A stretch of 64,000 bases of DNA. Source: Somniosus microcephalus (lineage: Eukaryota). A model generated the notes under the pieces. It was not told where the DNA came from and ran no database searches. It worked only from the letters and a program-made list of their open reading frames with translations. Made by a program: the position numbers and the translations under genes. This document shows, piece after piece, positions 12,264 through 53,066 of the stretch. Position 1 is the first letter of the stretch. Each line of letters opens with the position of its first letter. The DNA is taken from the NCBI GenBank assembly GCA_052327205.1, contig CM126204.1:158410001-158474000 (forward strand), written 5' to 3'.

Positions 12264-15200
12264 TGTGGCGGAGACCACATAGGGACAATACCACAATTCA
12301 CAATGTATAGCCAATGTTGTTATATGTACGTACTTGGTTGGGTTATCGGGGCAGGGTCCCTTTAAGAGTGTCGGTAGCGTGATGACGTCATGCGTCGGTA
12401 GTGTGATGATGTCATGGCCCTGCAACGAGGCTGAGCACCTTAGTCCTCATGGAGAGTGAATAAAGTAACACACGTTTTGCCTTTGCTGCAACAAGTCTCA
12501 GCCTGTTGATTTCGAGCGACTCCAACATTGGTGACCCCGCTGCTCTTTTGGACGATTCCAAAGACCTCATCTGAAATGGCGACGAACGCCGTTTCCATCA
12601 AATTACCCAAGTTTTGGGAACGACAGGCTGTCGCTTGGTTCACCCAGGTCGAGGCTCAATTTGCACTCCGGGACATCACCGCGGACGACACGAGGTACTA
12701 CTACGTCATCTCTGCTCTCGGCAGCTCCACCGCGGCCAGAGTCGTGAGCCTGCTCGAGAACCCCCCGGAGCTCAACAAATTCGAAACGCTGAAAACGCAC
12801 CTCTTAGAAACTTTTGGACTCACCGAAGCCGAGCGCGCACGCCGGCTTCTCTCTCTACCCGGGCTTGGTGACTCCAAGCCCTCGGAGCTGATGGACCACA
12901 TGCTGGCCCTCCTGGGCACACACAGGCCATGCTTCCTCTTCAAGGAACTGTTCCTTCAACAGCTGCCAGGTCAGGTACGGTCGGCTTTAGCCAACTCTTC
13001 CATTACCCATTTCTGTGACCTGGCCAATGAGGCCGACAAATTTTTCTCCGCCGGGCAACAGTACTGCGCGGCCACGCAGAGCCCTGCCCCCACCGATACA
13101 GCCCAACGGCGGCAGCCCCCAAGCCTCTGCTTCTACCACGTGCAGTTCAGCCCCAAAGCCAGGAAGTGCCGGTCCCCGTGCAGTTTTCCCGCGTCGAAAC
13201 AAACGAAAGACCACTCGTTGGCTGCTATGGCTGTCGGCCGTTCAGGCAGTTTGTTATTTATTACGGACACCGACTCCGGACGTCATTTTCTTTGCGACAC
13301 GGGTGCCCAGGTGAGCGTCCTGCCCGCGTCAACCATAGACATGCAAGGGGGGAACCACGGCTCCGTCCTCGAAGCCGCCAACGGCAGTTCCATCCGCATC
13401 TTCGGGAAACGGAACGTGGCGCTTTGTTTTGGCGGGCAGCGGTTCACCTGGGACTTTGTCACGGTAAAAGTGTCCACCCCCCTTCTCGGCGCTGACTTCC
13501 TCTGCGCCAATGGCCTTTTGGTGGACATCAAGAACCGACGTCTCATCAACGCTGAGACTTTCAGCTCGCTCCCATGTTCCCTCAGCGGGTCCAGCATGAC
13601 GAAGTTGTACAGCGCACTCTCGGCCTCCGACGAGTTTTCCTGCCTCCTCGCCGAGTTCCCGGACCTCACGACGCCCACGTTCTCGTCCGCCGCCACTAAA
13701 CACGGGGTAGAACACCACATCTCGACCACCGGTCCGCCCATCTATGCCCGCGCTCGGCGCCTCGACCCAGGGAAACTCGCCATCGCTAAAGCCGAGTTCG
13801 ACACCATGGAGCGCCTCGGCATCATCCGCCAGTCGAACAGTCCGTGGGCCTCGCCCCTCCACATCGCTCCGAAACCAGGCAGCAGGTGGCACCTGTGCGG
13901 CGATTACCGGCGCCTCAACGACGCTACAACCCCTGACCGCTACCCGATTCCTCACATCCAGGACTTTTCCGCCCGCCTGGCCGGGAAAGTGGTATTCTCG
14001 AAAGTGGACCTCGTCCGGGGTTACCACCAGGTCCCTGTCCGGCCGCAGGATGTCCCGAAAACCGTGGTGATCACCCCGTTCGGGCTGTTCGAATTCCTCC
14101 GCATGCCATTCGGCCTCATAAACGCCGCCCAGGCTTTTCAACGCCTAATGGACACCGTGTTACGGGACCTGACATTCCTGTTCGTATACCTGGACGACAT
14201 CCTCATCGCCAGCGCCTCCAGGACGGAGCATGTGTCGCACCTTCGGACTCTCTTCCAACGCCACAGCCAGCACGGCCTAATCGTCAACCCGGCCAAGTGC
14301 CAGTTCGGGCTGTCCTCGATCGACTTTCTCGGGCACCACATCACGAAGGATGGGGCGGTGCCACTGCCATCGAAAGTGGAGGCCGTGATGGACTTCCCGC
14401 GACCCATCACCGTGAAGGCCCTGCAGGAGTTTTTGGGCATGGTGAACTTTTACCATCGCTTCGTCCCCCGAGCAGCCCAGCTTATGCGGCCCCTTTATGA
14501 GGCCCTCAAAGGCAAGCCCGACAAGCTCGCCGTCGACTGGTCCGAGGAGATGGCCAATTCTTTCACGGACACCGATCGCTCTCACCACCGACGCCTTGGA
14601 CTATGCGGTCGGCGCCGTCCACGAACAGTGCGTCAACGGCACCTGGCAGCTGCTCGCCTTCTTCAGCCGGCAGCTCCGCCCCAACGAGCGGAAGTACAGC
14701 ACCTTCGATCGGGAGCTTCTCGGCCTCTACCTCACCGTCTGACACTTCCGTTTCCTACTGGAGGCTCGCCCGTTCACAGCGTTCGTGGACCACAAACCAT
14801 TGACCTACGCTATGGCCAAAGCTTCCGAACCGTGGTCAGCCCGTCAGCAACGCCAGCTGCCCTTCATCTCAGAATTTACAATGGACATCCAGCATGTGGC
14901 TGGGAAAGACAACCCCGTCGTCGACTGTCTCTCCGAACCGTCGCCAGCACTGTACACCTTGGCATCAACTACACCCGCATGGCGGCCGACCAGGCCTCCG
15001 ACCCGGACGTCCAGGCCTATAGGACGGCGCTCACGGGCCTTCAACTAGCGGACGTCGCGTTCGACGATGCCGGCACCACACTCCTGTGCGACGTCTCCAT
15101 TGGGTAGCCACGTCCTGTCCTCCATCATCTTTTCCACCCGGGCAGGAAGCCGTCACAGAAGCTGGTGGCGGCCAAGTTCATCTGGCACGGGCTCAGGAAG

Positions 15201-16593
15201 GATATTCGCGACTGGGCCAGCACCTGCGTGTTATGCCAACGCTCGAAAGTGCATCGCCATACTAAGGCCCCGTTGAAGCCTTTCACAGTGCCCAAGAGGC
15301 GGTTCGACCATGTTAACGTGTACCTGGTGGGGTCCCTGCCGCCCTCCCGCGGGTTCACCCATCTCCTCACAAAGGTCGACAGAACCACCCGATGGCCGGA
15401 CGCCGTCCCGCTGTCTTCAACGACGTCCGCCGATGTGGCTCGGGCGTTCATCAGCACTTGGGTCGGCCGGTTCGGCGCCCCATCTGACACTTCCTCCGAC
15501 CGGGGTCCCCAGTTCACGTCGGAGCTCTGGAACGCTGTCGCCCGAGGCCTCGGGTTGAGTCTCCACCGCACCACTGCATACCACCCTCAGGCTAACGGAC
15601 TGTGCGAACGGTTTCATCGCTCCATGAAGGCCGCGCTCCGGGCCAGCCTCCGGGACGACAGTTGGATCGACAGACTCCCGTGGGTCATGCTGGGACTCAG
15701 GACCGCCCCCAAGGAGGACCTCCAGTCCTCGTCCGCCAAGCTCGTCTACAGACAGCCGCTGCGGGTTCCCGGGGATTTCGTCCCCAGCGCAACGGAACCT
15801 TGGTCCGCAGCCCGTTAGCGGTCCGACCTTCTGGACAACGCCAAGGTTTTCGCGCCGGTGCCCACGTCGCAGCACGATCTCCCGCAGTCCCACGTTCCGC
15901 TCGACCTTCGTGCGGCGGTTTACGTTTTCGTCCGCCACGACGCCCACCGGGGACCTCTTCAGCCACCCTACGATGGACCAGTCCGCATCCTGGAAACCGG
16001 GGACAAGACCTTTGTAGTGGATGTCGGCGGTAAGCCGGACTGCATTTCCGTGGACCGTCTTAAGCCGGCCCACCTGGATCTGGACCGACCCGTTGAGTTG
16101 GCACAGCCCCCGAGGCGGGGCCGACCTCCGGTCTCTGCACCCTCAGTCCACCACCGAGCGCCCGAGTTCCCTCCGACGAACCCCCCGGTCCCCGCCCCGG
16201 AATTGAGGAGCCGTTCCGACCGTGTGATCCGGCCCCCCCAACGAATGACATTGCCAGTGCTAGTGAATTCTGGGGGGACGTATGTGGCGGAGACCACATA
16301 GGGACAATAACACAATTCACAATGTATAGCCACTGTGGTTATATGTACCTAAACACAATTCACTATGTATAGCCAATGTTGTTATATGTACGTACTTGGT
16401 TGGGTTATCGGGGCAGGGTCCCTTTAAGAGCGTCGGTAGCGTGATGACGTCATGCGTCAGTAGCGTGATGACATCATTGCCTTGCAACGAGGCTGAGAAG
16501 CTCAGTCCTCATGGAGAGTGAATAAAGTAACACGCGTTTTGCCTTTGCTGCAACAAAAGTCTCAGAGCCTGTTGATTTCTAGCGACTCCAACA
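12264..16593 (+). mobile_element. Ty3/Gypsy LTR retrotransposon, CsRn1-like clade, full structure but degenerate
   Basis: LTRs TGTGGCGG...CCAACA at 12264-12527 and 16283-16593; TSD ACAT at 12260-12263 and 16594-16597; PBS TGGTGACCCCG (tRNA-Trp type) from 12529; PPT GGGGGGAC at ~16272. Confidence 0.95.
12576..16301 (+). pseudogene. Gypsy gag-pol (Gag, protease, RT, RNase H, integrase), frameshifted after RT
   Basis: Gag CHCC motif CFYH-x9-C-x3-C typical of the CsRn1 clade; protease CDTGAQVS; RT YLDD; RNase H TTDA..YAVGA in another frame after a deletion at ~14570; integrase SDRGPQFTS, YHPQANGLCERFH and PYDGP motif. Confidence 0.92.
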
Positions 16594-16998: not shown

Positions 16999-19387
16999 TG
17001 TGGCGGTACCACTGGTTGTCCCTTACATTGAGACACATAATTCCCTTTAACTTACCTGTTGGGGCCATTGCCCCTTTAAGGCGCGCCCTAGCGCGCTGAC
17101 GTCATGTCACGTACGACGTGATGTGCGTGCGCCGGCACAGCCCGGCCTAGCGTCTTCGGCCTCAACGGCCAGCCGACAGGAGCGACGCAATCTTCCGCTC
17201 CTGCAGCAAGCACCGGCACAGCCCGGCCTCCCGACTTCGGCCTCAACGGCCAGCGACGCAATGACGCGCATCACGTGACGCCCTAAGCGCGGGAAACGCG
17301 AACGTGATGACGACACAACACAAACGCGATGACGTCATCACGCTCCCCACAGGACTGCGAACTCAGTCCTCGTGGAGTGCCCGCTGGGACAAGACCGACA
17401 CCACGGTGTTCCTACAGTCAGCCATCTTACCTGCTGTAATTAGCCTGTTCCTGTAAATAAACAACTTGTTAATAGTTTGTCGAAGTCAAACTCTCTTATT
17501 TAGTGGTGATCTACACGAACCGCTACATTGGTGACCCCACGACGTGAGTACGGGAGCTCATCAATTCCAACGCTACAATTGGTGAACCCGTATCCGTGAA
17601 CGATTTTCACGGTAGCAACGCACGCCTGAACCTCGTCTTCACTCAAGACGACCAACGCACAACCGATGAACAACCACGGAACAGCAACCGCCTAACACCG
17701 ATTCCACCAAAAGCGACCCCGTCTTTGCGTACGTATTCGCAAAGGAAGCGCAGCTTGGAGGTGAGCCCGTTTTTCACGAACGATTTCACAGAGGTAGAGC
17801 ACGACCAACGACAACCGTCATCCACCAGCACTACAATTGGTGGGTTTGTGAACGTCTTTCACAAACGAAGCACGCTATGGAAGCATCAGCCGTTCTGCTG
17901 TCGCTACCGCAATCCAGGGAGCCACGATCTCCCTCGTGCTTTATGAAGGAAGAAGCCCTGTTCGCCGAGAACATCGATGCGGCACAGACCACGCATGTGC
18001 TCACAGTCTCCGTATTCGACTCTTCTACCACCACACGGATCGTCCGCCTCTACATCCAAAGCAACAGCAAGTATACATCTCTCCAAGCGCGGGGTACAGC
18101 ACGTTCGGGCCCACAAGATCGGAGCGCGCCCCGCGGGGATACCACGAGGACTCACCCCCGCAAAACACGAGGACGCACTCCTCGCGCACGAGGACCCATC
18201 CCTCGCGAACCACGAGAACCCATCCCTCGTGAACACCGATGACTCTTTCCCCACCGACGACGCACCAGCCCTTCAGCCTGCTGGTTGTGTTACCTACTAC
18301 ACGATTTGGCATGAACAAAAAGCGTGCCACCCTCCCGGCTGTTTTCTCCTAAATCTACAACAGTTACAAGTGTTGCCGCCCTTTCTCCAGTTTTCCCTTT
18401 AACAAACGCAAACGTCTACTGAAGCTGCACACATCGAGGACGGGTCCAACGGGCATCCTGCGGCCGCGATCAGCCACGTGAAAGTTGCTAGCCTCACCGA
18501 TCACTGATCAACGCAGCAACTCTTCACCCTCCATTGTGTTCACGTCGTAGCACTATGGCACGCACCGTTCCGTGCGTTCCAGCCTCCCGAAGGTTTCGCT
18601 CACCAGCCAACGGAGACATCGCCCGCGTCCGCCCAACCTGCCCGTCACTCTGACAAGGCCTGCTGTTTCGCACGTCTCCACGGTCCTTCGCCTGACGGGT
18701 ACGTTTTATTCGCCACGACGCGCGTAAGGATCCGCTCACGAGCAGCATCTTCATACCTCGCCTACCAAGCCGAGACAGCACGACCGCCGAGACCACCAGC
18801 TCGTCAGACCATCTCATCCTTGGACTTTCGTTAAAGCGAATTCTGGGGGGGCCTATGTGGCGGTACCACTGGTTGTCCCTTACATTGAGACACATAATTC
18901 CCTTTAACTTACCTGTTGGGGCCATTGCCCCTTTCAGGTGCGCCCTAGCGCGCTGACGTCACGTCACGTACGACGTGATGTGCGTGCGCCGGCACAGCCC
19001 GGCCTAGCGTCTTCGGCCTCAACGGCCAGCCGACAGGAGCGACGCAATCTTCCGCTCCTGCAGCAAGCACCGGCACAGCCCGGCCTCCCGACTTCGGCCT
19101 CAACGGCCAGCGACGCAACGACGCGCATCACGTGACGCCCTAAGCGTGGGAAACGCGAACAACGTGATGACGTCACAACACAAACGCGATGATGTCATCA
19201 CGCTCCCCACAGGACTGCGAACTCAGTCCTCGTGGAGTCCCCGCTGGGACAAGACCTACACCACGGTGCTCCTACAGTCAGCCATCTTACCTGCTGTAAT
19301 TAGCCTGTTCCTGTAAATAAACAACTTGTTAATAGTTTGTCGAAGTCAAACTCTCTTATTTAGTGGTGATCTACACGAACCGCTACA
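16999..19387 (+). mobile_element. Non-autonomous LTR element (TRIM/LARD-like) related to CsRn1-type Gypsy
   Basis: LTRs 16999-17527 and 18856-19387 (TGTGGCGG...GCTACA); TSD CTTG at 16995-16998 and 19388-19391; PBS TGGTGACCCC..GACGTGA; PPT GAATTCTGGGGGGG; 1.3-kb interior without RT. Confidence 0.93.
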
Positions 19388-43645: not shown

Positions 43646-44205
43646 AAGCAACAGCTAAGGATAGTGTAAGCCTTAAACTAAAACCTTAAGATATAAGAAC
43701 ATAAGAACATAAGAAATAGGAGCAGGAGTAGGCCAATCGGCCCCTCGAGCCTGCTCCGCCATTCAATAAGATCATGGCTGATCTGATCCTAACCGCCAAT
43801 CTACTATCACAGAACCATCTCCTGAATCTAACAGAATTAGACACACGAAATAGGAGCAGGATCAGGCTACACGGCCCCTGGGCCTGCTCCGCTACCCACA
43901 GGGCCATGACCGATCCGAACCTAGACTCATGTCCAAATTCCTGCCCGCTCCCCATAACCCTTTATTCCCTTTACTTCTAGGAAACTGTCTATTTCTGTTT
44001 TAAATTTATGTAATGATGTAGCTTCTACAGCTTTTTGGGGCAGCATATTCCATGGACCTACCACCCTCTGAGTGAAGTAGTTCCTCCTCATCTCAGTTTT
44101 GAAAGAACAGCCCCTTATTCTAAGACTATGCCCCCTAGTTCTAGTTTCACCCATCATCGGGAACATCCTCCCCGCATCCACCCGATCCAACCCCTTCACA
44201 ATCTT

Positions 44206-47200
44206 TGTAGTGGCGCTTCTTAGTTTCCAAACAGGCAGGCCACTGGGCTGTGGGGCTTTTAACATCGAGTAGACGCGTGTCGAAATAAAACGTTCCCAAA
44301 CGTAGCTTTGTCTTTTAAACTGTTTACTATAACACTTAACAAACAGAATTACAAAGCAAACACGTATAAACGAACACGGTCAAAAACTGTACTGCTCCAA
44401 ACCTCACAGCTTCTGCCTCTTTCACCACGTGCAGTTTAAAACTGTAAGATGGCTGCACCCATGTGTGGCTTAGGGACTGTTCCATTGTGGCAAGAATGAA
44501 GGGGGTGTCGGACTATACTACTGGAGCAAGAAAATAGGGGGTTTCTTAATACAATAAGTCGTTCAGGTAAATTAACTGTATTATGCCATTTAGCCACTAT
44601 TTTAAAGTATTTTCTTAAGCTTTTATGGCTCTTACATTCCGGCCCCTAATTGACTAGGCACATGAAGCATATCAATTACTCAAACATTAAGAGTCATAAA
44701 CTAATGAGTTCAACATATTTACAATACAAGTGTCCACTTTTTTCTTTCGTTCAGGAGCCTTTCACGCTGCTTCTTGTAGCAGGCAGAGCTTTGTGATCGG
44801 TCTCTCCAGGGTACTGGTCTTGGTTTGCAAACAGACGCGACGAACAACGCCTCTGGAGTCTGGCATGGTCTTAATTATTTTTCCCATCAACCAAGAATTT
44901 CTAGGGGCTGAATCATCCACAATTAAGACAATGTCTCCGATGATGAAGTTCCTCTTTATTTTGGACCATTTTTGACGCTCCTGTAGCAGAGGTAAGTATT
45001 CTCTTGTCCATCTGGTCCAGAAGAGGTCTGACATATACTGAACTTGCCTCCACTTCCGACGGGCATACAGATCTTCCTTTTTGAAGACTCCCGGGGGCAT
45101 GGCTGGCTGTGTTTTCAACAACAACAGGTGGTTCGGAGTCAGGGCTTCGAGGTCATTGGGATCATCTGATGTCTTAGTTATCGGTCGGTCATTAATGATG
45201 GCTTCGACCTCGCACAGAACGGTTTGGAGTCCCTCGTCGTCCAGCGCTTGCTGCTTCAGTACAGAACTGAGTAGTTTTCTTACGGTGCGTATCTGTCTTT
45301 CCCAGACACCTCCGTGGTGGGATGCAGCCAGAGGATTGAAGATCCACTTAATTCCTGTTTGCATCATGGCTTCCTGTATTTTAAGCTGATTCCAACCTTC
45401 AATAGCTTCCCGTAGTTCTCTCTCCGCTCCGACGAAATTAGTGCCATTATCAGAACGCATAATGGACACCTGTCCTCTTCTACAGACAAAGCGCCGCAAG
45501 GCGTTAATACAGGAATCAGTGTCAAGCGTGTGTGCCACCTCAATATGAACTGCTCTGATGGTCAAACAAGTGAAAAGCACACCATATCTCTTGACAAGGC
45601 TCCGTCCTCGCTTTACCTCGAAAGGCCCAAAATAGTCCACCCCTACGTTTGTAAATGGGGGCTTGTCTGGTAACAAACGGTCTTCAGGCAGGTCTGCCAT
45701 TTTCTGCTCCCCAGCTCTAGCGTGTAACCGTCTGCAAACAATACATTCAGAGAGTATTTTTCTTATTACGGAATTAGCTCCTGGAATCCAGTATCTTTGT
45801 CTTAGCTTCGCAAGCACGTGATTCCTCCCACTGTGTCCAATACTCTGGTGTATATGCTGAAGAATGAGAGTAGCAACCCGGAGGTCCTTCGAAAGGATAG
45901 CAGGATGCTTGGCCTCCTCTGGCATAGCAGATTTGTTTAGTCTCCCTCCCACCCTCAGTACTCCATCTTGCAGTGTAGGGTCCAGCTTGTAGATATGACT
46001 ACCTTTCTTGATTGGAGTATTTTGCTGTAGAGCTTCGGTTTCTTCTGGGTATCTTTGTCTTTGACTGAAGCAAACTATCTCCTTCTCAGCCTTGGCCAAA
46101 TCCTCCACGGTCAATGAATTCTTGCTCAATGTGGTCTTGTGCTGATGCATATACTGCTGTAGAAGCATTCTCTGCTTATCAGGGTTACTTTCAGACTGAC
46201 TGATAGTGGCTCGGTACTCTTTTCTCTTACCGCTCAGGTGTAGCAGCAACTCTTTCAACCTTAGAAACCATGCAACTGCTTTCCTCAACTGGTGCCATCC
46301 TGAGAAATGGTTAACAAGCTTGTTCACTGTGTCAAAGTTCTCTTTCGTAGTTATGAAATTTACTGTGACTGATCTCTTGACTTCGACGTCGTCTTCAGTA
46401 ATCTGACTTGGCATATCTGGTCTTTCTGGCCATGATCTCTCTGTTTCCAGCAGATAACTTGGGCCTTGTATCCAAGTTTCACTCCTCATGAAGTTTTCAG
46501 CCTTCAGTCCCCGTGAGGCTTGATCTGCTGGGTTTAATGAGGTGTTTACATACCTCCATTGAGATGGTTGTGTAGCTTCTCTAATGGATGAGATTCTGTT
46601 TGCTATGAAGGTCTTGAAGCGTATTTTCTCATTCTCTATATACTTCAGCACCGTCGTGCTATCCGTCCAGAAGACAGATTCTTCTAATGGGAGCTGTAAC
46701 TCTTTACGCATCACCTGGTCAACTTTAACTGCAACAACCGCTGCCGTCAATTCCAGTCTCGGGATGGTGACCTGCTTCAGCGGAGCCACCCTGGATTTTC
46801 CCATGAGGAAGGCACAATGTTTCTGGCCCTGTTGATTTGTCAGCAAGAGGTAGGTAGCCGTGCCATAGCCGTCCTCACTGGCGTCCGAGAAATGATGTAG
46901 TTGAGCCGTCTTTGTAACTCCAAAACTCGCGGGCTTGATGCATCTACTGACGTTGAAGCTAGAAAGTTGTTGCAGATCTGTCAGCCATCTGTGCCATCTC
47001 TGAGCTTGACCTTCTGGGATATCTTCATCCCATCCTCTCTTGTCTCTACACAGCTCTCGTAGCATTGGCTTCACCGGCAGAATGAGTGGTGCCAGGAATC
47101 CGAGAGGGTCGTAGATGGAACTGACCACGGAGAGAATCCCTCGTCTTGTGGATGGTCTTTCGTTCACCATTATCCTGAAGTTGAACGTGTCTGACTCGAT

Positions 47201-50200
47201 GCACCATTGTACACCAAGAGCTCTCTCGATAGGAAGGACATCGTGGCTCAGGTCCAGATCTTTGACTTCAGTGGCTCTTTCCTTTTCTGGGATAGAAGCT
47301 GGAACTGCTCTGCTATTGCTTATCCACTTAGTCAGGTGGAATCCTCCATTCGAACACAGAGTTCTAAGGTCTCTTGACAGTGCGATGGCATCGTCTTCTG
47401 TTGACACGGACTTCAGACAGTCATCGACATAAAAGTTTCTGAAGATTGTCTCCACAGCCTCGGATGGTGCTTTGCCCTTGCCATCTTCTGCAGTTTTTCT
47501 GAGAGCGTAGCTTGCACAGCTGGGAGATGATGTGGCTCCAAACAGGTGTACGGCCATTCTACATTCCACCATCGCTTCACTAACGTCGCCATCTGGCCAC
47601 CAAAGGAAACGCAGAAGATCAGCATCTTCGTCAGGGACTCTGACTTGGTAGAACATTGATTCTATGTCTGCCATCATGGCAACGAGCTCTTGTCTAAACC
47701 TAGTCAAGACGCCAATGAGGGTATTAGTAAGATCAGGACCTTGAAGCAGCTGGTCATTCAATGAAGTTCCTCTGAATGAGGCGGCGCAGTCAAACACTAC
47801 ACGGATCTTTTTCTTCTTTGGGTGATACACCCCGTGATGAGGAATGTACCAGACCCTTCCATCGTCTCTGTTCAACTGTTCTTCGGGCACTTTTACAGCA
47901 TAGCCTTTCGCTATGATGTTTCTCATGAAGTCTTTGTAGTCTTCGTGAAAGTCGGGGTTCTTGTTCAGCTTTCTCTTTAGACTGATGGCGCGTTGCTCTG
48001 CTATGCAGCGATTGTTCGGCATCTTCGCGGTCTGTCTTCTCAGTGGCAAACCAATGTGATAGTGGCCATCAATGAACTGTGTAGACCTTGTCATCAAACC
48101 CATGAACTGATGGTCTTCTTGTGACATCTCTGTCTTTTCCTCACGGCTGCGTTCTGAGAAGTCTGCGTTGAACTGCTGTATCAACAGCTCTTCAATGCTT
48201 GCGATAGAGATGCGATTAACTGTGACGTTTTGTCGTTCCTCCTTGTTCGACTTGTGGCCATCATCTCTCCTTACCGGTCCATTGATTACCCATCCAAGGG
48301 CTGTCCTGACGGCGTAGGGTCCGTCATCCTTGCTGTTTATCACCTGCCATGGCTCCATAGTTTTGTAGGCATTGGTTCCAATTAATAGGCCAATTTCTGC
48401 TTCAATGTATGGGAGACGCACCTTTTCTAGGTAGGGCCATCTATCCACATCCTTCTGCAGGGCTAGGTTCCCTATTCTAACAGGAATCTTCCTCTGTGTG
48501 AAAACATTAGGCAGGTCTATGAAGTCCTTCTCTTCAAGTCCACACACTTCTAGGTCTGACAGGATATAGCTTTGCATTGACTTCTCATGACCCATGGTGC
48601 GTAATATGATTTCTGTTCTTCTGCCTCTAACGTTCAGCTGTCGCATGAGTGATTCTGTGCAGAACGTTGCTGAACTACCTGGATCCATGAAGGCGTAAGT
48701 CTCCACAACCTTCTCACTCCTCTTAGACTTGATCCTTACTGGTACGATGGCAAGAATACAGGCACTGTCACCGGCCCCAGTGAGTCCACAAGTCTCTGGT
48801 TCTAGCGACACCAGAGCACTTGAAACAACCTTCTCGTCGGTATTGTTTTCTTCACTCTTCTTAGAGACTTGTTCTTCTTTATGGATATGCAGCAGACTGG
48901 GATGTTTCCGAGTGCACTCTCTGCATGTTGTTCTTTGCTTACAGTTTCTACTCAGGTGCCCCTGAGAGAGACATCCAAAACATAGGCCGTTGTACTTCAG
49001 GAATTCGATTCTGTCCTTATGTGGCTGTGCTTTGATGTCGCTGCAGAAATCCAATGTATGATTCTTTTGGCAGAATAAGCATGGCTTCTGAAAGGCATTA
49101 GCAGGCGTCACTGTGCTGCTCTTTTTGGGAGATGAGTTCTGGGGCCTTTCTTCCTCGGCCTGAGTGACGATAGTTGCAAAGCTGCTTCCCCTGGAACCAC
49201 CTTTCCTGAGAGTCTTTGATTCAGCAGGCTTGGCTTTCACTCTTCCATCGGTGGTCGGGCTGACATCCTGGATGTTTCCAAACAATGGGTCCCTAGCAAT
49301 TTTAGCCTGTTTGTCGATGAAATTCACTAAGTCTGCAAACCTGGCTCTACTTTTCCGTCTCTCCATTATCTCAAAGGCTGTTCTTCTCCATTGTTCTCTC
49401 ATCCTGTAAGGAAGCTTAGAGATGACGATTCTCATAGTCGTAGGATTGTCCATCTCTTCCATGAATTCAACACCCTCCATGGTGTTGCGACATCCTATGA
49501 GGAAGAGAACATATGCGTTCAATGCCTCTCCATCTTCCGATCTGATCTGTGGCCACTTGGTAGCCTTTTCGATATATGCAGTGGCTATCTTCAGCTCATT
49601 ACCATAGTGCTGCTGCAGCAACTTCCTGGCTTCTATGTATCCCCGGTCCGGTCTCATGTGTTCACAGCTTCTGACCAGGTCTTGTGGTTTACCACTGGTG
49701 TACTGTCCCAGGTAGTACAACTTATCACTGCTGCTCTCTGTCTTGGAGTCAATGGCTTGTTCAAAGGATCTGATGAAGGGCTTATACTTGAGTGGGTCGC
49801 CTTGGAACACTGGTATGTCTCTTTGAGGGAGTCGAAACAGATTCTGTTGTTTTACAAGCATCTCTGTAATTTCGTTCTGACGTTGCATCACTCGGTATAG
49901 GCTTCTCCCTGTGTCTTCAGGCCTCTGGTGGTCATCAGCAGGGTCTAGTCTAGACCGTCTGACGTCTGGGGTAGCATCACGTGCTCCTGTTAGTGGAGAG
50001 GCCACTCTTCCATGCTGTAATGCCGAGGAATTGCTTTCGGGCTCTGTTGTAACTCTTGAAGGTGCCCTGGATCCAACTCTATGTGGCAACGTTGACTGGC
50101 AGTGGCTCCCGCCGTCCCGTGAGCCTTCATAATCTTCGTACGCACTCAACCTGGCATCTGAGACCTCAATAGCTGTTTTCATCTCCAGCCGTTCTTTCTT

Positions 50201-51543
50201 TGCCTGCACCTGGGCCCGCTGGGCCTGCACTTGGGCCTGTTGGGCCTGCACTTGGGCCTGCAGTTGGGCCTGTTGGGCCTGCAGTTGGGCCTGCAGTTGG
50301 GCCTCTTGGACCTGCAGTTGGGCCTCTTCCCGTTCAAGAGCTTGCTTCTCATCTAAAGATGCTGCGCGCGCCATCAACGCCGCCCGTTCAGCCTCCGCTC
50401 TCATGCGTCGCACCGAGCTTGTGGTAGAAGCGACTGACCTGCGTCCAGAAACAGAGCTACCTTCTTTTCGATTTTTGCTCGGTCTGGCGGAAGTCTCTGA
50501 AATGCTATCGTCTGGTCCGACTTCATCGTCAACCTTATCTTTCTCTGCTGTATCAGCATCTTGACGAATTTTTAACATCCACTGCTCCGTGGCCTTGATA
50601 TAGTCCTTAATGCTGGTTGATTTAAGATCAAACCAGTCGTGCTGATCAGTGTTTCCCTCTTCTTCAGACAGAAGTGCTAATATATCTTCATTGAGTATAT
50701 TAAATTCTTCATGCAGCTTGGAGAAATCGTAATACACCATGTCTTCAGCTTTCTTAATATTAGCATTATCTTCCATGAGACGATCAATTATCTTCATTTT
50801 TCCAGTTATCTGAACTAATTTAGCCTTCCTTGCACCTATGCTTCTATGTAACTTCTCTTCCCTTGCCTTTGGGGTGAGCTTTATTTCCCTCTTTTGGCCA
50901 GCAATCATTCTGGCTGGGGGAAGCTCCTGGCTCCTTAAGGCCTCGGCCATTTTACCCGCAGCTCTTATTTAGCTTCTCAACAGAATGAACAAAGCAAGTA
51001 ACAGTCACTGTACCTTCGCTTTCTTAAATTGTCGTCTGGCTCCGTGACCATTCATGTATACGTTCGCCGACGATTCCATCCCTTCCTTCTTAGGGAGCTA
51101 GTTTTTGACTAATGTAGTGGCGCTTCTTAGTTTCCAAACAGGCAGGCCACTGGGCTGTGGGGCTTTTAACATCGAGTAGACGCGTGTCGAAATAAAACGT
51201 TCCCAAACGTAGCTTTGTCTTTTAAACTGTTTACTATAACACTTAACAAACAGAATTACAAAGCAAACACGTATAAACGAACACGGTCAAAAACTGTACT
51301 GCTCCAAACCTCACAGCTTCTGCCTCTTTCACCACGTGCAGTTTAAAACTGTAAGATGGCTGCACCCATGTGTGGCTTAGGGACTGTTCCATTGTGGCAA
51401 GAATGAAGGGGGTGTCGGACTATACTACTGGAGCAAGAAAATAGGGGGTTTCTTAATACAATAAGTCGTTCAGGTAAATTAACTGTATTATGCCATTTAG
51501 CCACTATTTTAAAGTATTTTCTTAAGCTTTTATGGCTCTTACA
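44206..51543 (-). mobile_element. BEL/Pao LTR retrotransposon, full length, apparently intact
   Basis: 431-bp LTRs at 44206-44636 and 51113-51543 with no difference found by eye; TSD ATCTT at 44201-44205 and 51544-51548; PPT AGGGGCCGGAA adjacent to the 3' LTR. Confidence 0.97.
44762..50950 (-). CDS. BEL/Pao Gag-Pol polyprotein, 2062 aa, uninterrupted
   Basis: Three Gag Cys-His knuckles (CLFC...H...C, CFGC....H....C, CREC...H....H); protease FMDPGS; RT KIRVVFDC, FGATSSP, FYVDD; RNase H FSDAS, TIPRLEL, WTDST; integrase H-x4-H...C-x2-C, DYFGP, SDNGTNF, GGVWER. Confidence 0.97.
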   Translation of the reverse strand: MAEALRSQELPPARMIAGQKREIKLTPKAREEKLHRSIGARKAKLVQITGKMKIIDRLMEDNANIKKAEDMVYYDFSKLHEEFNILNEDILALLSEEEGNTDQHDWFDLKSTSIKDYIKATEQWMLKIRQDADTAEKDKVDDEVGPDDSISETSARPSKNRKEGSSVSGRRSVASTTSSVRRMRAEAERAALMARAASLDEKQALEREEAQLQVQEAQLQAQLQAQQAQLQAQVQAQQAQVQAQRAQVQAKKERLEMKTAIEVSDARLSAYEDYEGSRDGGSHCQSTLPHRVGSRAPSRVTTEPESNSSALQHGRVASPLTGARDATPDVRRSRLDPADDHQRPEDTGRSLYRVMQRQNEITEMLVKQQNLFRLPQRDIPVFQGDPLKYKPFIRSFEQAIDSKTESSSDKLYYLGQYTSGKPQDLVRSCEHMRPDRGYIEARKLLQQHYGNELKIATAYIEKATKWPQIRSEDGEALNAYVLFLIGCRNTMEGVEFMEEMDNPTTMRIVISKLPYRMREQWRRTAFEIMERRKSRARFADLVNFIDKQAKIARDPLFGNIQDVSPTTDGRVKAKPAESKTLRKGGSRGSSFATIVTQAEEERPQNSSPKKSSTVTPANAFQKPCLFCQKNHTLDFCSDIKAQPHKDRIEFLKYNGLCFGCLSQGHLSRNCKQRTTCRECTRKHPSLLHIHKEEQVSKKSEENNTDEKVVSSALVSLEPETCGLTGAGDSACILAIVPVRIKSKRSEKVVETYAFMDPGSSATFCTESLMRQLNVRGRRTEIILRTMGHEKSMQSYILSDLEVCGLEEKDFIDLPNVFTQRKIPVRIGNLALQKDVDRWPYLEKVRLPYIEAEIGLLIGTNAYKTMEPWQVINSKDDGPYAVRTALGWVINGPVRRDDGHKSNKEERQNVTVNRISIASIEELLIQQFNADFSERSREEKTEMSQEDHQFMGLMTRSTQFIDGHYHIGLPLRRQTAKMPNNRCIAEQRAISLKRKLNKNPDFHEDYKDFMRNIIAKGYAVKVPEEQLNRDDGRVWYIPHHGVYHPKKKKIRVVFDCAASFRGTSLNDQLLQGPDLTNTLIGVLTRFRQELVAMMADIESMFYQVRVPDEDADLLRFLWWPDGDVSEAMVECRMAVHLFGATSSPSCASYALRKTAEDGKGKAPSEAVETIFRNFYVDDCLKSVSTEDDAIALSRDLRTLCSNGGFHLTKWISNSRAVPASIPEKERATEVKDLDLSHDVLPIERALGVQWCIESDTFNFRIMVNERPSTRRGILSVVSSIYDPLGFLAPLILPVKPMLRELCRDKRGWDEDIPEGQAQRWHRWLTDLQQLSSFNVSRCIKPASFGVTKTAQLHHFSDASEDGYGTATYLLLTNQQGQKHCAFLMGKSRVAPLKQVTIPRLELTAAVVAVKVDQVMRKELQLPLEESVFWTDSTTVLKYIENEKIRFKTFIANRISSIREATQPSQWRYVNTSLNPADQASRGLKAENFMRSETWIQGPSYLLETERSWPERPDMPSQITEDDVEVKRSVTVNFITTKENFDTVNKLVNHFSGWHQLRKAVAWFLRLKELLLHLSGKRKEYRATISQSESNPDKQRMLLQQYMHQHKTTLSKNSLTVEDLAKAEKEIVCFSQRQRYPEETEALQQNTPIKKGSHIYKLDPTLQDGVLRVGGRLNKSAMPEEAKHPAILSKDLRVATLILQHIHQSIGHSGRNHVLAKLRQRYWIPGANSVIRKILSECIVCRRLHARAGEQKMADLPEDRLLPDKPPFTNVGVDYFGPFEVKRGRSLVKRYGVLFTCLTIRAVHIEVAHTLDTDSCINALRRFVCRRGQVSIMRSDNGTNFVGAERELREAIEGWNQLKIQEAMMQTGIKWIFNPLAASHHGGVWERQIRTVRKLLSSVLKQQALDDEGLQTVLCEVEAIINDRPITKTSDDPNDLEALTPNHLLLLKTQPAMPPGVFKKEDLYARRKWRQVQYMSDLFWTRWTREYLPLLQERQKWSKIKRNFIIGDIVLIVDDSAPRNSWLMGKIIKTMPDSRGVVRRVCLQTKTSTLERPITKLCLLQEAA

Positions 51544-53066
51544 ATCTTATATGTTTCAATAAGATCGCCTCTCATTCTTCTGAACTCCAATGAGTAGAGT
51601 CCCAATCTACTCAACCTCTCCTCATATGTCCATCCCCTCATCCCCGGGATTAACCGAGTGAACCTTCTTTGTACTGACTCGAGTGCAAGTATGTCTTTTC
51701 TTAAGTATGGACACCAAAACTGTATGCAGTATTCCAGGTGCGGTCTCACCAATACCTTGTACAACTGAAGCAATACCTCCCTATTTTTATATTCTATCCC
51801 CCTAGCAATGAAAGCCAACATTCCATTGGCCTTCTTAATCACTTGCTGCACCTGCATACTAACCTTTTGAGTTTCGTGCACCAGGACCCCCAGATCCCTT
51901 TGTACTTCAGTACTTTCCAGTTTCTTGCCATTAAGATAATAACTTGCTCTATGATTTTTTCTGCCAAAGTGCATAACCTCACACTTTCCAGTATTGTATT
52001 CCATCTGCCAAACCTCTGCCCACTTACTTAGCCTGTCTATGTCCCCTTGCAGGTTTTTTATGTCCTCCTCACTCACTACTTTCCCTCCCATCTTAGTATC
52101 ATCTGCAAACTTTGATATGTTACACTCGGTCCCCTCCTCCAAATCATTAATATAGATTGTAAAGAGTTGGGGACCCAGCACTGACCCCTATGGAACACCA
52201 CTAGTTACTGATTGCCATTCTGAGAATGAACCATTTATCCCAACTCTCTGCCTTCTGTTAGATAGCCAATCCTCTATCCATGCCAGAATATTACCCCCAA
52301 TCCCGTGATTTTTTATCTTAAGCAATAATCTTTTGTGTGGCACCTTGTCAAATGCCTTTTGGAAGTCTAAATACACTACGTCCACTGGTTCCCCTTTATC
52401 CACCCTATATGTTACTTCCTCAAAGAACTCCAGCAAATTTGTCAAACATGACTTCCCCTTCATAAAACCATGCTGACTTTGTCCTATTAAATTATGATTA
52501 TCCAAATGTCCTGTTACTGTCTCCTTAATAATGGACTCCAATATTTTACCTACCACAGATGTTAGGCTAACCGGTCTATAGTTTCCAGCCTTCTGTCTAC
52601 TGCCCTTTTTAAATAAGGGCGTTACATTAGCAGTTTTCCAGTCTGCCGGGACCTTTGTTGAGTCCAGGGAGTTTTGAAAAATTATTACCAATGCATCCAC
52701 AATCCCTACTGCCACTTCCCTCAAGACCCTAGGATGTAAGCCATCAGGTCCAGGTGATTTATCCGCCTTGAGTCCCATTATTTTACCGAGTACCACTTCC
52801 TTAGTGATTTTGATCGTGTTTAGCTCCTCCCCCCCATAGCCCTCTGTTTGTCCAGTGTTGGGATATTCTTAGTGTCTTCTACTGTAAAGACTGATACAAA
52901 ATATTCATTCAGTGTTTTTGCCATCTCCATAATGAATAGCAAGGAGTAATGGCAAGCCTGTAATGTAATGCGTTATAAATCATAAGAGTGAAGCTTGAGT
53001 GAATCTGTATCTGAAAGTTGTGTGAGTGAAGAAGCTGAAGACAAGTTTTTTGTTGAAAGCACGTTA

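What the first reader, a model, noticed from the sequence alone, without database searches (positions are those of the whole stretch)
51093..51305. BEL/Pao element with no tRNA PBS but an LTR-complementary PBS: candidate self-priming
Seen: on the element's sense (minus) strand the 5' LTR is followed by TTAGTCAAAAACTAGCTCC, with no TGG complementary to tRNA CCA. The LTR itself reads GGAGC-AGTAC-AGTTTTTGAC on that strand (51305-51286). This pairs perfectly over 10 bp with GTCAAAAACT and over 5 more bp (GGAGC/GCTCC) past an internal loop. The primer 3' end would point at U5, three bases from the LTR edge. Established: S. pombe Tf1 primes reverse transcription with its own first 11 nt after RNase H cleavage, and this is proposed for Tf1/sushi chromoviruses. 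Inference: this BEL lineage may use an equivalent tRNA-independent mechanism. I do not know whether this has been described for Suzu/Sinbad-type BEL elements.
Basis: partly seen in the sequence, partly recalled or inferred. Interest (0 to 1): 0.8.

Follow-up and report, generated by a model that had tools for sequence, protein, structure and literature searches.

The report
Self-priming signature in BEL/Pao retrotransposons
A young, high-copy jumping gene of the BEL/Pao group has no tRNA landing site; that site instead pairs with a stretch of the element's own terminal repeat, related families keep the pairing with different letters, and so the group likely starts copying itself with a piece of its own RNA rather than with a host tRNA.

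Summary
Observation confirmed to the base. The element is a young BEL/Pao retrotransposon with identical 431-bp LTRs, a 5-bp TSD and one 2062-aa ORF; 1,237 genomic places hold the exact LTR/PBS pair. Alone, the 10-bp match is modest (68 of 5000 shuffles). Relatives carry the case. In 18 families with unalignable LTRs, each PBS matched its own LTR over 10 bp or more in 16 of 18, against 15 of 306 cross-pairs. The core is strictly Watson-Crick, stops at the same base in 18 of 18, and lies upstream of the poly(A) signal in 16 of 18. In a sister clade the match is completed across a GT-AG intron in the LTR (8 of 10 families). RNA reads of one run end at 51304-51306, 10 nt upstream of the core (weak). 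No tRNA fits, but the tRNA test is incomplete. Best reading: Tf1-like self-priming with a primer of about 20 nt; cleavage and priming are untested. Not found in print in ten searches. This scan noted the same thing earlier on other genomes.

The parts
51113..51543 (-). 5' LTR, 431 bp, TG..CA
   Evidence: identical to the 3' LTR
51301..51305 (-). GGAGC: 5' arm of the outer helix, likely at or near the RNA 5' end
   Evidence: read ends at 51304 and 51306 in run X6
51286..51295 (-). AGTTTTTGAC: LTR segment complementary to the PBS core; inferred 3' half of the self-primer, with inferred cleavage after 51286
51230..51235 (-). AGTAAA: candidate poly(A) signal, 50 nt downstream of the core
   Evidence: such a hexamer lies within 135 nt downstream in 16 of 18 families and upstream in 3 of 18
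51117..51152 (-). predicted U5 stem-loop just before the LTR end (approximate limits)
   Evidence: MFE and centroid folds; not tested across families
51110..51112 (-). 3-nt spacer (TTA) between the LTR end and the PBS
   Evidence: 3-5 nt in the 18 contiguous-type families
51100..51109 (-). PBS core GTCAAAAACT, no TGG
51094..51098 (-). GCTCC: 3' arm of the outer helix
44762..50950 (-). single gag-pol ORF, 2062 aa from the first ATG (DUF1759, three Cys-His knuckles, RT, Peptidase_A17, integrase, DUF5641)
44637..44647 (-). polypurine tract abutting the 3' LTR
   Evidence: the same GGGGCCGG motif in relatives
44206..44636 (-). 3' LTR (holds the second copy of the core at 44388-44379)
51544..51548 (-). 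target-site duplication AAGAT (other copy 44201-44205); the target is a LINE RT-coding stretch

Best explanation
The PBS of this BEL/Pao element is complementary to a segment of its own LTR and covaries with it across families, so the element likely primes minus-strand DNA synthesis with the 5' end of its own RNA instead of a tRNA. Shown: the complementarity, its covariation, its fixed 3' boundary, and its position upstream of the poly(A) signal. Weakly shown: an RNA start near 51305. Inferred: the first ~20 nt fold onto the PBS as a 10-bp core plus a 5-bp outer helix; the RNA is cut after the core's final AC (51286), by analogy with Tf1 by the element's own RT/RNase H; the new 3' OH is extended through 3 spacer bases and U5 up to the cut (about 176 nt of strong-stop DNA); this DNA jumps to the 3' R between the cut and the poly(A) site. 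Also inferred: plus strong-stop DNA copies the primer, which would rewrite the PBS core from the LTR every cycle and explain why the core is pure Watson-Crick while the outer helix tolerates G-U pairs and bulges.
For: (a) Own-LTR complement of 10 bp or more in 16 of 18 families (mean 10.8), against 15 of 306 cross-family pairs (mean 6.6) and 1 of 378 control leader windows; 0 of 100000 permutations reach the observed sum. LTRs of these families share a blastn hit in only 2 of 153 pairs, and those two hits are only 17 and 29 nt long; RT-RH identity among the 23 tree rows is 52-71%. (b) A blind scan of ~1 kb upstream of the ORF ranked the PBS/LTR pair first in 14 loci and second in 1, each starting with GT 3-5 nt after an ACA or ATA LTR end. 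(c) Positions 1-10 are Watson-Crick in 17-18 of 18 families with both-side changes at positions 3-7, 9 and 10, no G-U pair at positions 1-12, and the next base toward the LTR is unpaired in 18 of 18. (d) Duplex folding adds an outer helix past an asymmetric loop in nearly all families. (e) Poly(A)-type hexamer downstream in 16 of 18, upstream in 3 of 18, in the leader in 0 of 18. (f) Sister clade: only 6-7 bp are contiguous, right after a polypyrimidine-AG; in 7 scripted families the one GT of 34-72 that best extends the match (to 11-14 bp) is a GTRAG donor, and an eighth family shows the same by eye (L119). The complement therefore exists at RNA level only. (g) Run X6: 5 and 7 molecule ends at 51304 and 51306; depth with first mate on + falls 23, 14.5, 7 across 51302-51319 while the other direction stays 44, 44, 43. 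(h) No TGG at any of 41 anchored LTR ends (L119 read from the printed stretch), whereas two other LTR elements in this window carry TGG at +2.
Against: No primer, cleavage or strong-stop DNA was observed. The RNA signal is 12 molecules in one run of unstated strandedness, from an organism label that may not be this individual or species. An older subfamily diverges just upstream of 51306, and its clipped reads explain part of the drop (6 loose reads at 51313 in X6; 12 at 51306 in X7, where both directions fall). Folding depends on the RNA ends: core pair probability is 0.85-0.96 for 51305-51060, 0.36-0.46 if the RNA is extended to 50950, and 0 if it starts at 51354. For 13 of the 18 families the LTR end was anchored with help of the pairing arm, an ascertainment; of the 5 anchored by LTR-pair alignment alone, 4 reach 10-12 bp and L061 has 13 bp with one mismatch in its 3' LTR copy. 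Within this family no compensated double variant was found: 0 of 3 LTR-side and 0 of 3 PBS-side variant copies, and L032 carries an uncompensated change in both LTRs. The L098/L101 family shows the acceptor part but no matching donor, and the L106 copy has no canonical donor.
Confidence: 0.76

Rival explanations
1. The LTR-PBS duplex is a conserved leader structure (packaging, dimerisation or translation switch), and priming is done by something else.
For: Covariation alone shows pairing, not priming. A long-range 5' end/leader helix is common in retroelement leaders (own knowledge). The fold is sensitive to RNA length, which suits a switch.
Against: The 3' arm always starts 2-5 nt after the LTR end, exactly where priming must occur. 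Pairing stops at the same base in 18 of 18 families. The core has no G-U pair although RNA helices tolerate them. No other primer site is present.
Confidence: 0.11
2. The primer is element-derived but acts in trans: a short RNA from another copy, a solo LTR, or the second genomic RNA in the particle anneals to the PBS.
For: Sequence complementarity cannot tell cis from trans. More than 1,200 junction-bearing copies exist, and reads run out of LTR ends into varied flanks.
Against: The cis fold forms readily in the 246-nt leader. Tf1/Tf2 are described as using the R segment of the same mRNA (PMC5341516). No short RNA ending at 51286 was seen, but these libraries would not show one.
Confidence: 0.08
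3. A host RNA fragment (internal tRNA piece or snRNA Sm-site region) primes, and the LTR match is secondary.
For: The genome's U4 snRNA has an 8-nt complement to the PBS around its Sm site. Half-tRNA primers are known in some copia lineages (PMC6317226). The tRNA set examined was incomplete: 63 scored of 453,990 candidates, and the 3 of them run through ARAGORN were Cys and Lys.
Against: The U4 match is shorter than the own-LTR match and ends 14 nt inside U4. None of 12 genomic places with the 10-mer 8-30 nt before a T-loop motif is a tRNA. An internal U5 run is a Pol III terminator (own knowledge). PBS letters differ among families in step with each family's own LTR, which one conserved host RNA cannot explain.
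Confidence: 0.04
4. Chance complementarity of a T-run and an A-run.
For: 68 of 5000 shuffles reach 10 bp for this one element; the whole-leader fold z-score is not significant.
Against: Repeated at the same position in 16 of 18 unalignable families with different letters, including cores without a long homopolymer (L086, L078, L065).
Confidence: 0.01

Closest known systems
Tf1/Tf2 of Schizosaccharomyces pombe, Tj1 of S. japonicus and the Tf1/sushi group (Ty3/gypsy)
   Same: No tRNA site; the PBS is complementary to a segment in the R region of the element's own RNA, which is cleaved to give the primer (PMC4600332 and PMC5341516, passages).
   Different: Different superfamily (BEL/Pao proteins). 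Tf1 pairs with the very first nucleotides of its mRNA (PMC5445492, passage; the 11-nt length is recalled). Here the core starts about 10 nt after the likely 5' end, with a second outer helix and a 3-5 nt spacer after the LTR. A sister clade builds the complement across an intron.
Predicted self-primers in plant Tcn1 (gypsy) and TAR (copia) lineages
   Same: Same sequence criterion: a complement of 10 bp or more starting 0-5 bp after the 5' LTR (PMC6317226, passages); met here.
   Different: Plant lineages of other superfamilies; the passages read name no BEL/Pao case.
Belpaoviridae (BEL/Pao) as described by ICTV
   Same: LTRs, single gag-pol ORF, PR-RT-RH-IN order, PPT (PMC8742986, whole text).
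   Different: The profile gives an 18-nt PBS for tRNA-Arg or tRNA-Gly and priming by a host tRNA; this clade has no such site.
Sinbad / Sailor lineage of BEL/Pao
   Same: Triple Cys-His box of the Sinbad/Pao form; relatives in fishes and oysters, hosts named for this lineage in PMC554778 and PMC6238403.
   Different: Membership was not tested by a tree with reference elements. The main texts of those papers contain no 'PBS' or 'tRNA'.

Membership tests
BEL/Pao (Belpaoviridae) | Pao-specific protein domains and PR-RT-RH-IN order in gag-pol | tested here: met
   Peptidase_A17 E 3e-48, DUF5641, DUF1759, RT before integrase
BEL/Pao (Belpaoviridae) | LTRs of 0.2-1.2 kb, PPT, TSD | tested here: met
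   431-bp TG..CA LTRs, PPT, 5-bp TSD
BEL/Pao (Belpaoviridae) | Triple Cys-His box in Gag | tested here: met
   three knuckles at aa 624, 657 and 676
BEL/Pao (Belpaoviridae) | 18-nt PBS complementary to tRNA-Arg/Gly (described as a family trait in the ICTV profile; not used here as the demarcation, which rests on the proteins) | tested here: not met
   no TGG; this departure is the finding
Suzu clade | third knuckle CX4CX6HHX3C (PMC554778) | tested here: not met
   CX2CX3HX4H; not filed as Suzu
Sinbad/Sailor lineage | RT/RH phylogeny with reference elements | not testable with these tools
   no named reference sequences were obtained; only the knuckle form and host range agree
Tf1/sushi self-priming group | Ty3/gypsy (chromovirus) ancestry | tested here: not met
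   BEL/Pao domains; not filed as a member
Tf1/sushi self-priming group | 10 bp or more LTR complement to a PBS starting 0-5 bp after the LTR | tested here: met
   10 bp at +3; 16 of 18 families; criterion
Tf1/sushi self-priming group | complement is the first nucleotides of the mRNA | tested here: inconclusive
   read ends at 51304-51306, about 10 nt upstream of the core and at the outer helix; few reads, subfamily clipping
Tf1/sushi self-priming group | U5 stem-loop next to the PBS | tested here: inconclusive
   predicted in this element; not tested across families; the requirement in Tf1 was seen only as a reference title
Tf1/sushi self-priming group | RT/RNase H cleavage releases the primer | not testable with these tools
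   needs biochemistry

The most novel reading that the evidence does not exclude
A broad aquatic BEL/Pao clade has replaced tRNA priming by an independently evolved self-primer of about 20 nt taken from the capped 5' end of its own RNA; the PBS is re-templated from that primer every cycle, and in one branch the primer exists only after host splicing of an intron inside the LTR, so that splicing gates reverse transcription.
Probability: 0.5. Interest if true: 0.85.

Novelty: new variant of a known kind. Interest (0 to 1): 0.72.

Why it matters
The ICTV profile states that Belpaoviridae are primed by a host tRNA and that their replication is poorly understood. If this holds, a third LTR superfamily uses self-priming, with a different primer geometry from Tf1. 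It would explain why PBS-based annotation finds no primer site in these elements. It gives a sharp, testable prediction: an RNA end at 51286/51285 and a ~20-nt LTR-derived primer. The splice-built form in the sister clade would link the spliceosome directly to the start of reverse transcription.

Tried and rejected
Other BEL lineages in the own genome: two family searches and two searches with divergent RT-RH proteins gave no sign of one. All 40 fetched loci were 88-98% identical in protein to the window element; only top candidates are scored, so rarer families are not excluded. Viral contigs: 78 pattern hits, 0 relatives. No RNA holder was listed by the run index; two unindexed RNA runs were laid instead. 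Splice-junction primer in THIS family: rejected; the best GT adds at most 1 base to the 8 bases after the AG, there is no polypyrimidine tract, and no joint appears in RNA reads. Start of RNA at the A of the core (51295), the strict Tf1 analogue: no depth step there. Rfam: 0 matches in 50900-51600. The tRNA search was too shallow for a full host set. Search for compensated double variants within the family: one search gave 2 element copies among 8 hits, both uncompensated; one search was swamped by unrelated tandem repeats (1 element copy among the 100 of 141 rows listed, not followed). Rows dropped before the counts: of 80 metagenome loci, 26 lacked the 5' region and 13 of the remaining 54 gave no LTR end. 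L088, L090 and L107 had a PBS but not the needed LTR part. L083 and L111 were treated as duplicates of L087 and L077. The L125 and L118 anchors were judged wrong, and the L119 anchor was misplaced and read from the printed stretch instead. The script stopped at L094 after printing 10 rows; its L055 and L106 rows used wrong bounds and were redone.

Full report
1. The observation. On the minus strand the window holds a BEL/Pao element with identical 431-bp LTRs (51543-51113, 44636-44206), TG..CA ends, a 5-bp TSD and a PPT. It has one 2062-aa ORF with DUF1759, RT, Peptidase_A17, integrase and DUF5641, and it is inserted in a LINE RT-coding stretch. The pattern of the two core arms at this spacing occurs 1,237 times in the genome and its reversed control 0 times. 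Of 50 fetched copies, the script found the LTR-PBS junction in 45; 39 keep the perfect 10 bp, one has a G-U change, three have one mismatch and two lack the LTR segment. For this element alone the match is modest: 68 of 5000 shuffled LTRs give 10 bp or more, and the leader's folding energy is ordinary.

2. Relatives. The own genome yielded only this lineage, so I scanned metagenome contigs with a 22-protein alignment and got 80 loci. 54 keep the 5' region and 41 gave an LTR end; none of the 41 has TGG, and all have GT 2-5 nt after the LTR end. A blind scan for perfect inverted repeats upstream of the ORF ranked the PBS/LTR pair first in 14 loci and second in one. With the window element this gave 18 testable families of the contiguous type. 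Own-LTR complements reach 10 bp or more in 16 of 18 (mean 10.8), cross-family pairs in 15 of 306 (mean 6.6) and control leader windows in 1 of 378; no permutation of 100000 reached the observed sum. The exceptions are L074 (9 bp) and L061 (13 bp with one mismatch in its 3' LTR copy). These LTRs are unalignable: 2 of 153 pairs share a hit, of 17 and 29 nt. Caveat: 13 of the 18 ends were anchored with help of the pairing arm; five were fixed by LTR-pair alignment alone, and four of these reach 10-12 bp.

3. Shape of the pairing. Aligned on the PBS's first GT, positions 1-10 are Watson-Crick in 17-18 of 18 families, with both-side changes at positions 3-7, 9 and 10, and no G-U pair through position 12. 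The base that would extend pairing toward the LTR is unpaired in 18 of 18, which is the boundary a primer 3' end needs. An imperfect outer helix past an asymmetric loop recurs in nearly all families. A poly(A)-type hexamer lies within 135 nt downstream of the core in 16 of 18 families, upstream in 3, and in the leader in 0. That puts the core in R with room for strand transfer.

4. Sister clade. Following a lead from earlier notes of this scan, I tested the other 20 anchored loci (11 families, 10 testable). Only 6-7 bp are contiguous there, right after a polypyrimidine tract and AG. In 7 families the GT that best extends the match, among 34-72 candidates, is a GTRAG donor and gives 11-14 bp; L119 shows the same by eye. 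L106 and L098/L101 do not complete the match. The clade is well supported, with one contiguous-type family inside it. A complement that exists only across a splice junction argues that the pairing matters as RNA. No RNA of these hosts was examined. The window's family is not of this type.

5. RNA reads. Two raw RNA runs were laid on the LTR (24-31% of each run read). In X6, 5 and 7 molecules end at 51304 and 51306, and depth with first mate on + drops from 23 to 7 over 51302-51319 while the other direction stays at 43-44. If the library is of the usual stranded kind, this is a sense 5' end at the outer helix, about 10 nt upstream of the core; there is no step at 51295. The signal is weak. Counts are low, strandedness is not stated, many reads are read-through, and an older subfamily diverges just upstream of 51306, which explains part of the drop in X6 and possibly all of it in X7. 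Folding favours the core (0.85-0.96) when the RNA runs 51305-51060, less so with a longer leader (0.36-0.46), and not at all from 51354.

6. Host primers. U4 snRNA gives 8 bp, ending 14 nt inside the RNA. None of 12 places with the 10-mer before a T-loop motif is a tRNA. The genome-wide tRNA search was too shallow for a full set, so this test is incomplete. Family-specific covariation is the stronger argument against any single host RNA.

7. Mechanism. Most likely (0.76) the first ~20 nt of the element's RNA fold onto the PBS, are cut after 51286 and prime minus-strand synthesis. Complementarity, covariation, boundary and position are shown; the start site is weakly shown; cleavage, the nuclease and priming are inferred from Tf1/Tf2. 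Copying of the primer into the PBS at plus-strand transfer would explain the pure Watson-Crick core, but my search for compensated variants within the family found none in six variant copies, which neither shows nor excludes it. Rivals: a structural helix without a priming role (0.11), a trans-acting element RNA (0.08), host RNA (0.04), chance (0.01).

8. What is known. It works like Tf1/Tf2/Tj1 and meets the published sequence criterion for a self-primer, but it is not a member of the Tf1/sushi group. By its proteins it is BEL/Pao, with a Sinbad-type and not a Suzu-type third knuckle; the clade was not tested with references. The ICTV profile gives tRNA-Arg/Gly priming for the family. Ten library searches listed no paper describing self-priming in BEL/Pao. 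What I saw: the whole text of PMC8742986; term-search passages of PMC3601003, PMC554778, PMC3118150, PMC6317226, PMC4600332, PMC8220671, PMC6238403, PMC8556966, PMC5341516, PMC6934838, PMC5445492, PMC12440569 and PMC2774666; no passage from PMC11117352, which held none of the terms; listings only for the rest. The original Tf1 papers were not held, and the 11-nt figure is recalled. No supplements were read, and Repbase, GyDB, the full ICTV report and subscription papers were out of reach; any of these may already note the missing tRNA site or the pairing. Six earlier notes of this scan report the same idea on other genomes; they are unchecked notes and were used only as leads.

9. Verdict. A real, conserved feature: a new variant of self-priming in a superfamily described as tRNA-primed. 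Interest 0.72.

Noticed in passing
window 12264-16593 (+) and 16999-19387 (+): Two other LTR elements: an RT/integrase-coding one with LTRs about 93% alike, and a 2.4-kb one without Pfam domains in the two frames scanned, with 532-bp LTRs 97.6% alike. They share the LTR start, the PPT and a canonical TGG-type PBS at +2 (tRNA-Trp-like by recall), so the short one may be a non-autonomous partner of the long one. They served as a positive control for a normal PBS.
   Followed up: partly
L064, L095, L096, L099, L110, L116, L119, L122 (LTRs): GT-AG introns of 77-366 nt (scripted families) inside the LTR whose removal would complete the PBS complement. How such an intron survives reverse transcription is unexplained. 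In L110 and L122 the exon starts with the same GGAGC seen here.
   Followed up: partly
L065: A contiguous-type family nested inside the spliced clade, which suggests intron loss or more than one gain.
   Followed up: no
L098, L101: Acceptor plus 7 bp present in L098, but no donor that completes the match was found in either copy.
   Followed up: partly
window 44648-44656 (-): TAGTCAA, the first letters of the PBS region, recurs just upstream of the PPT in this family; meaning unknown, possibly chance.
   Followed up: no
window about 51264-51445: In run X7, 90 molecules with first mate on - begin at 51444-51445, with high depth across the core region: possibly an antisense transcript that would cover the primer segment.
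   Followed up: no
window 50190-50330 (-): Gag holds a Q/A-rich heptad-like repeat; open frames of 2012-2083 codons among copies may reflect its length change.
   Followed up: no
G000 genome-wide: All BEL hits fetched belong to one recently expanded lineage, with older subfamilies whose LTRs are 84-87% alike to this one and most divergent just upstream of GGAGC.
   Followed up: partly
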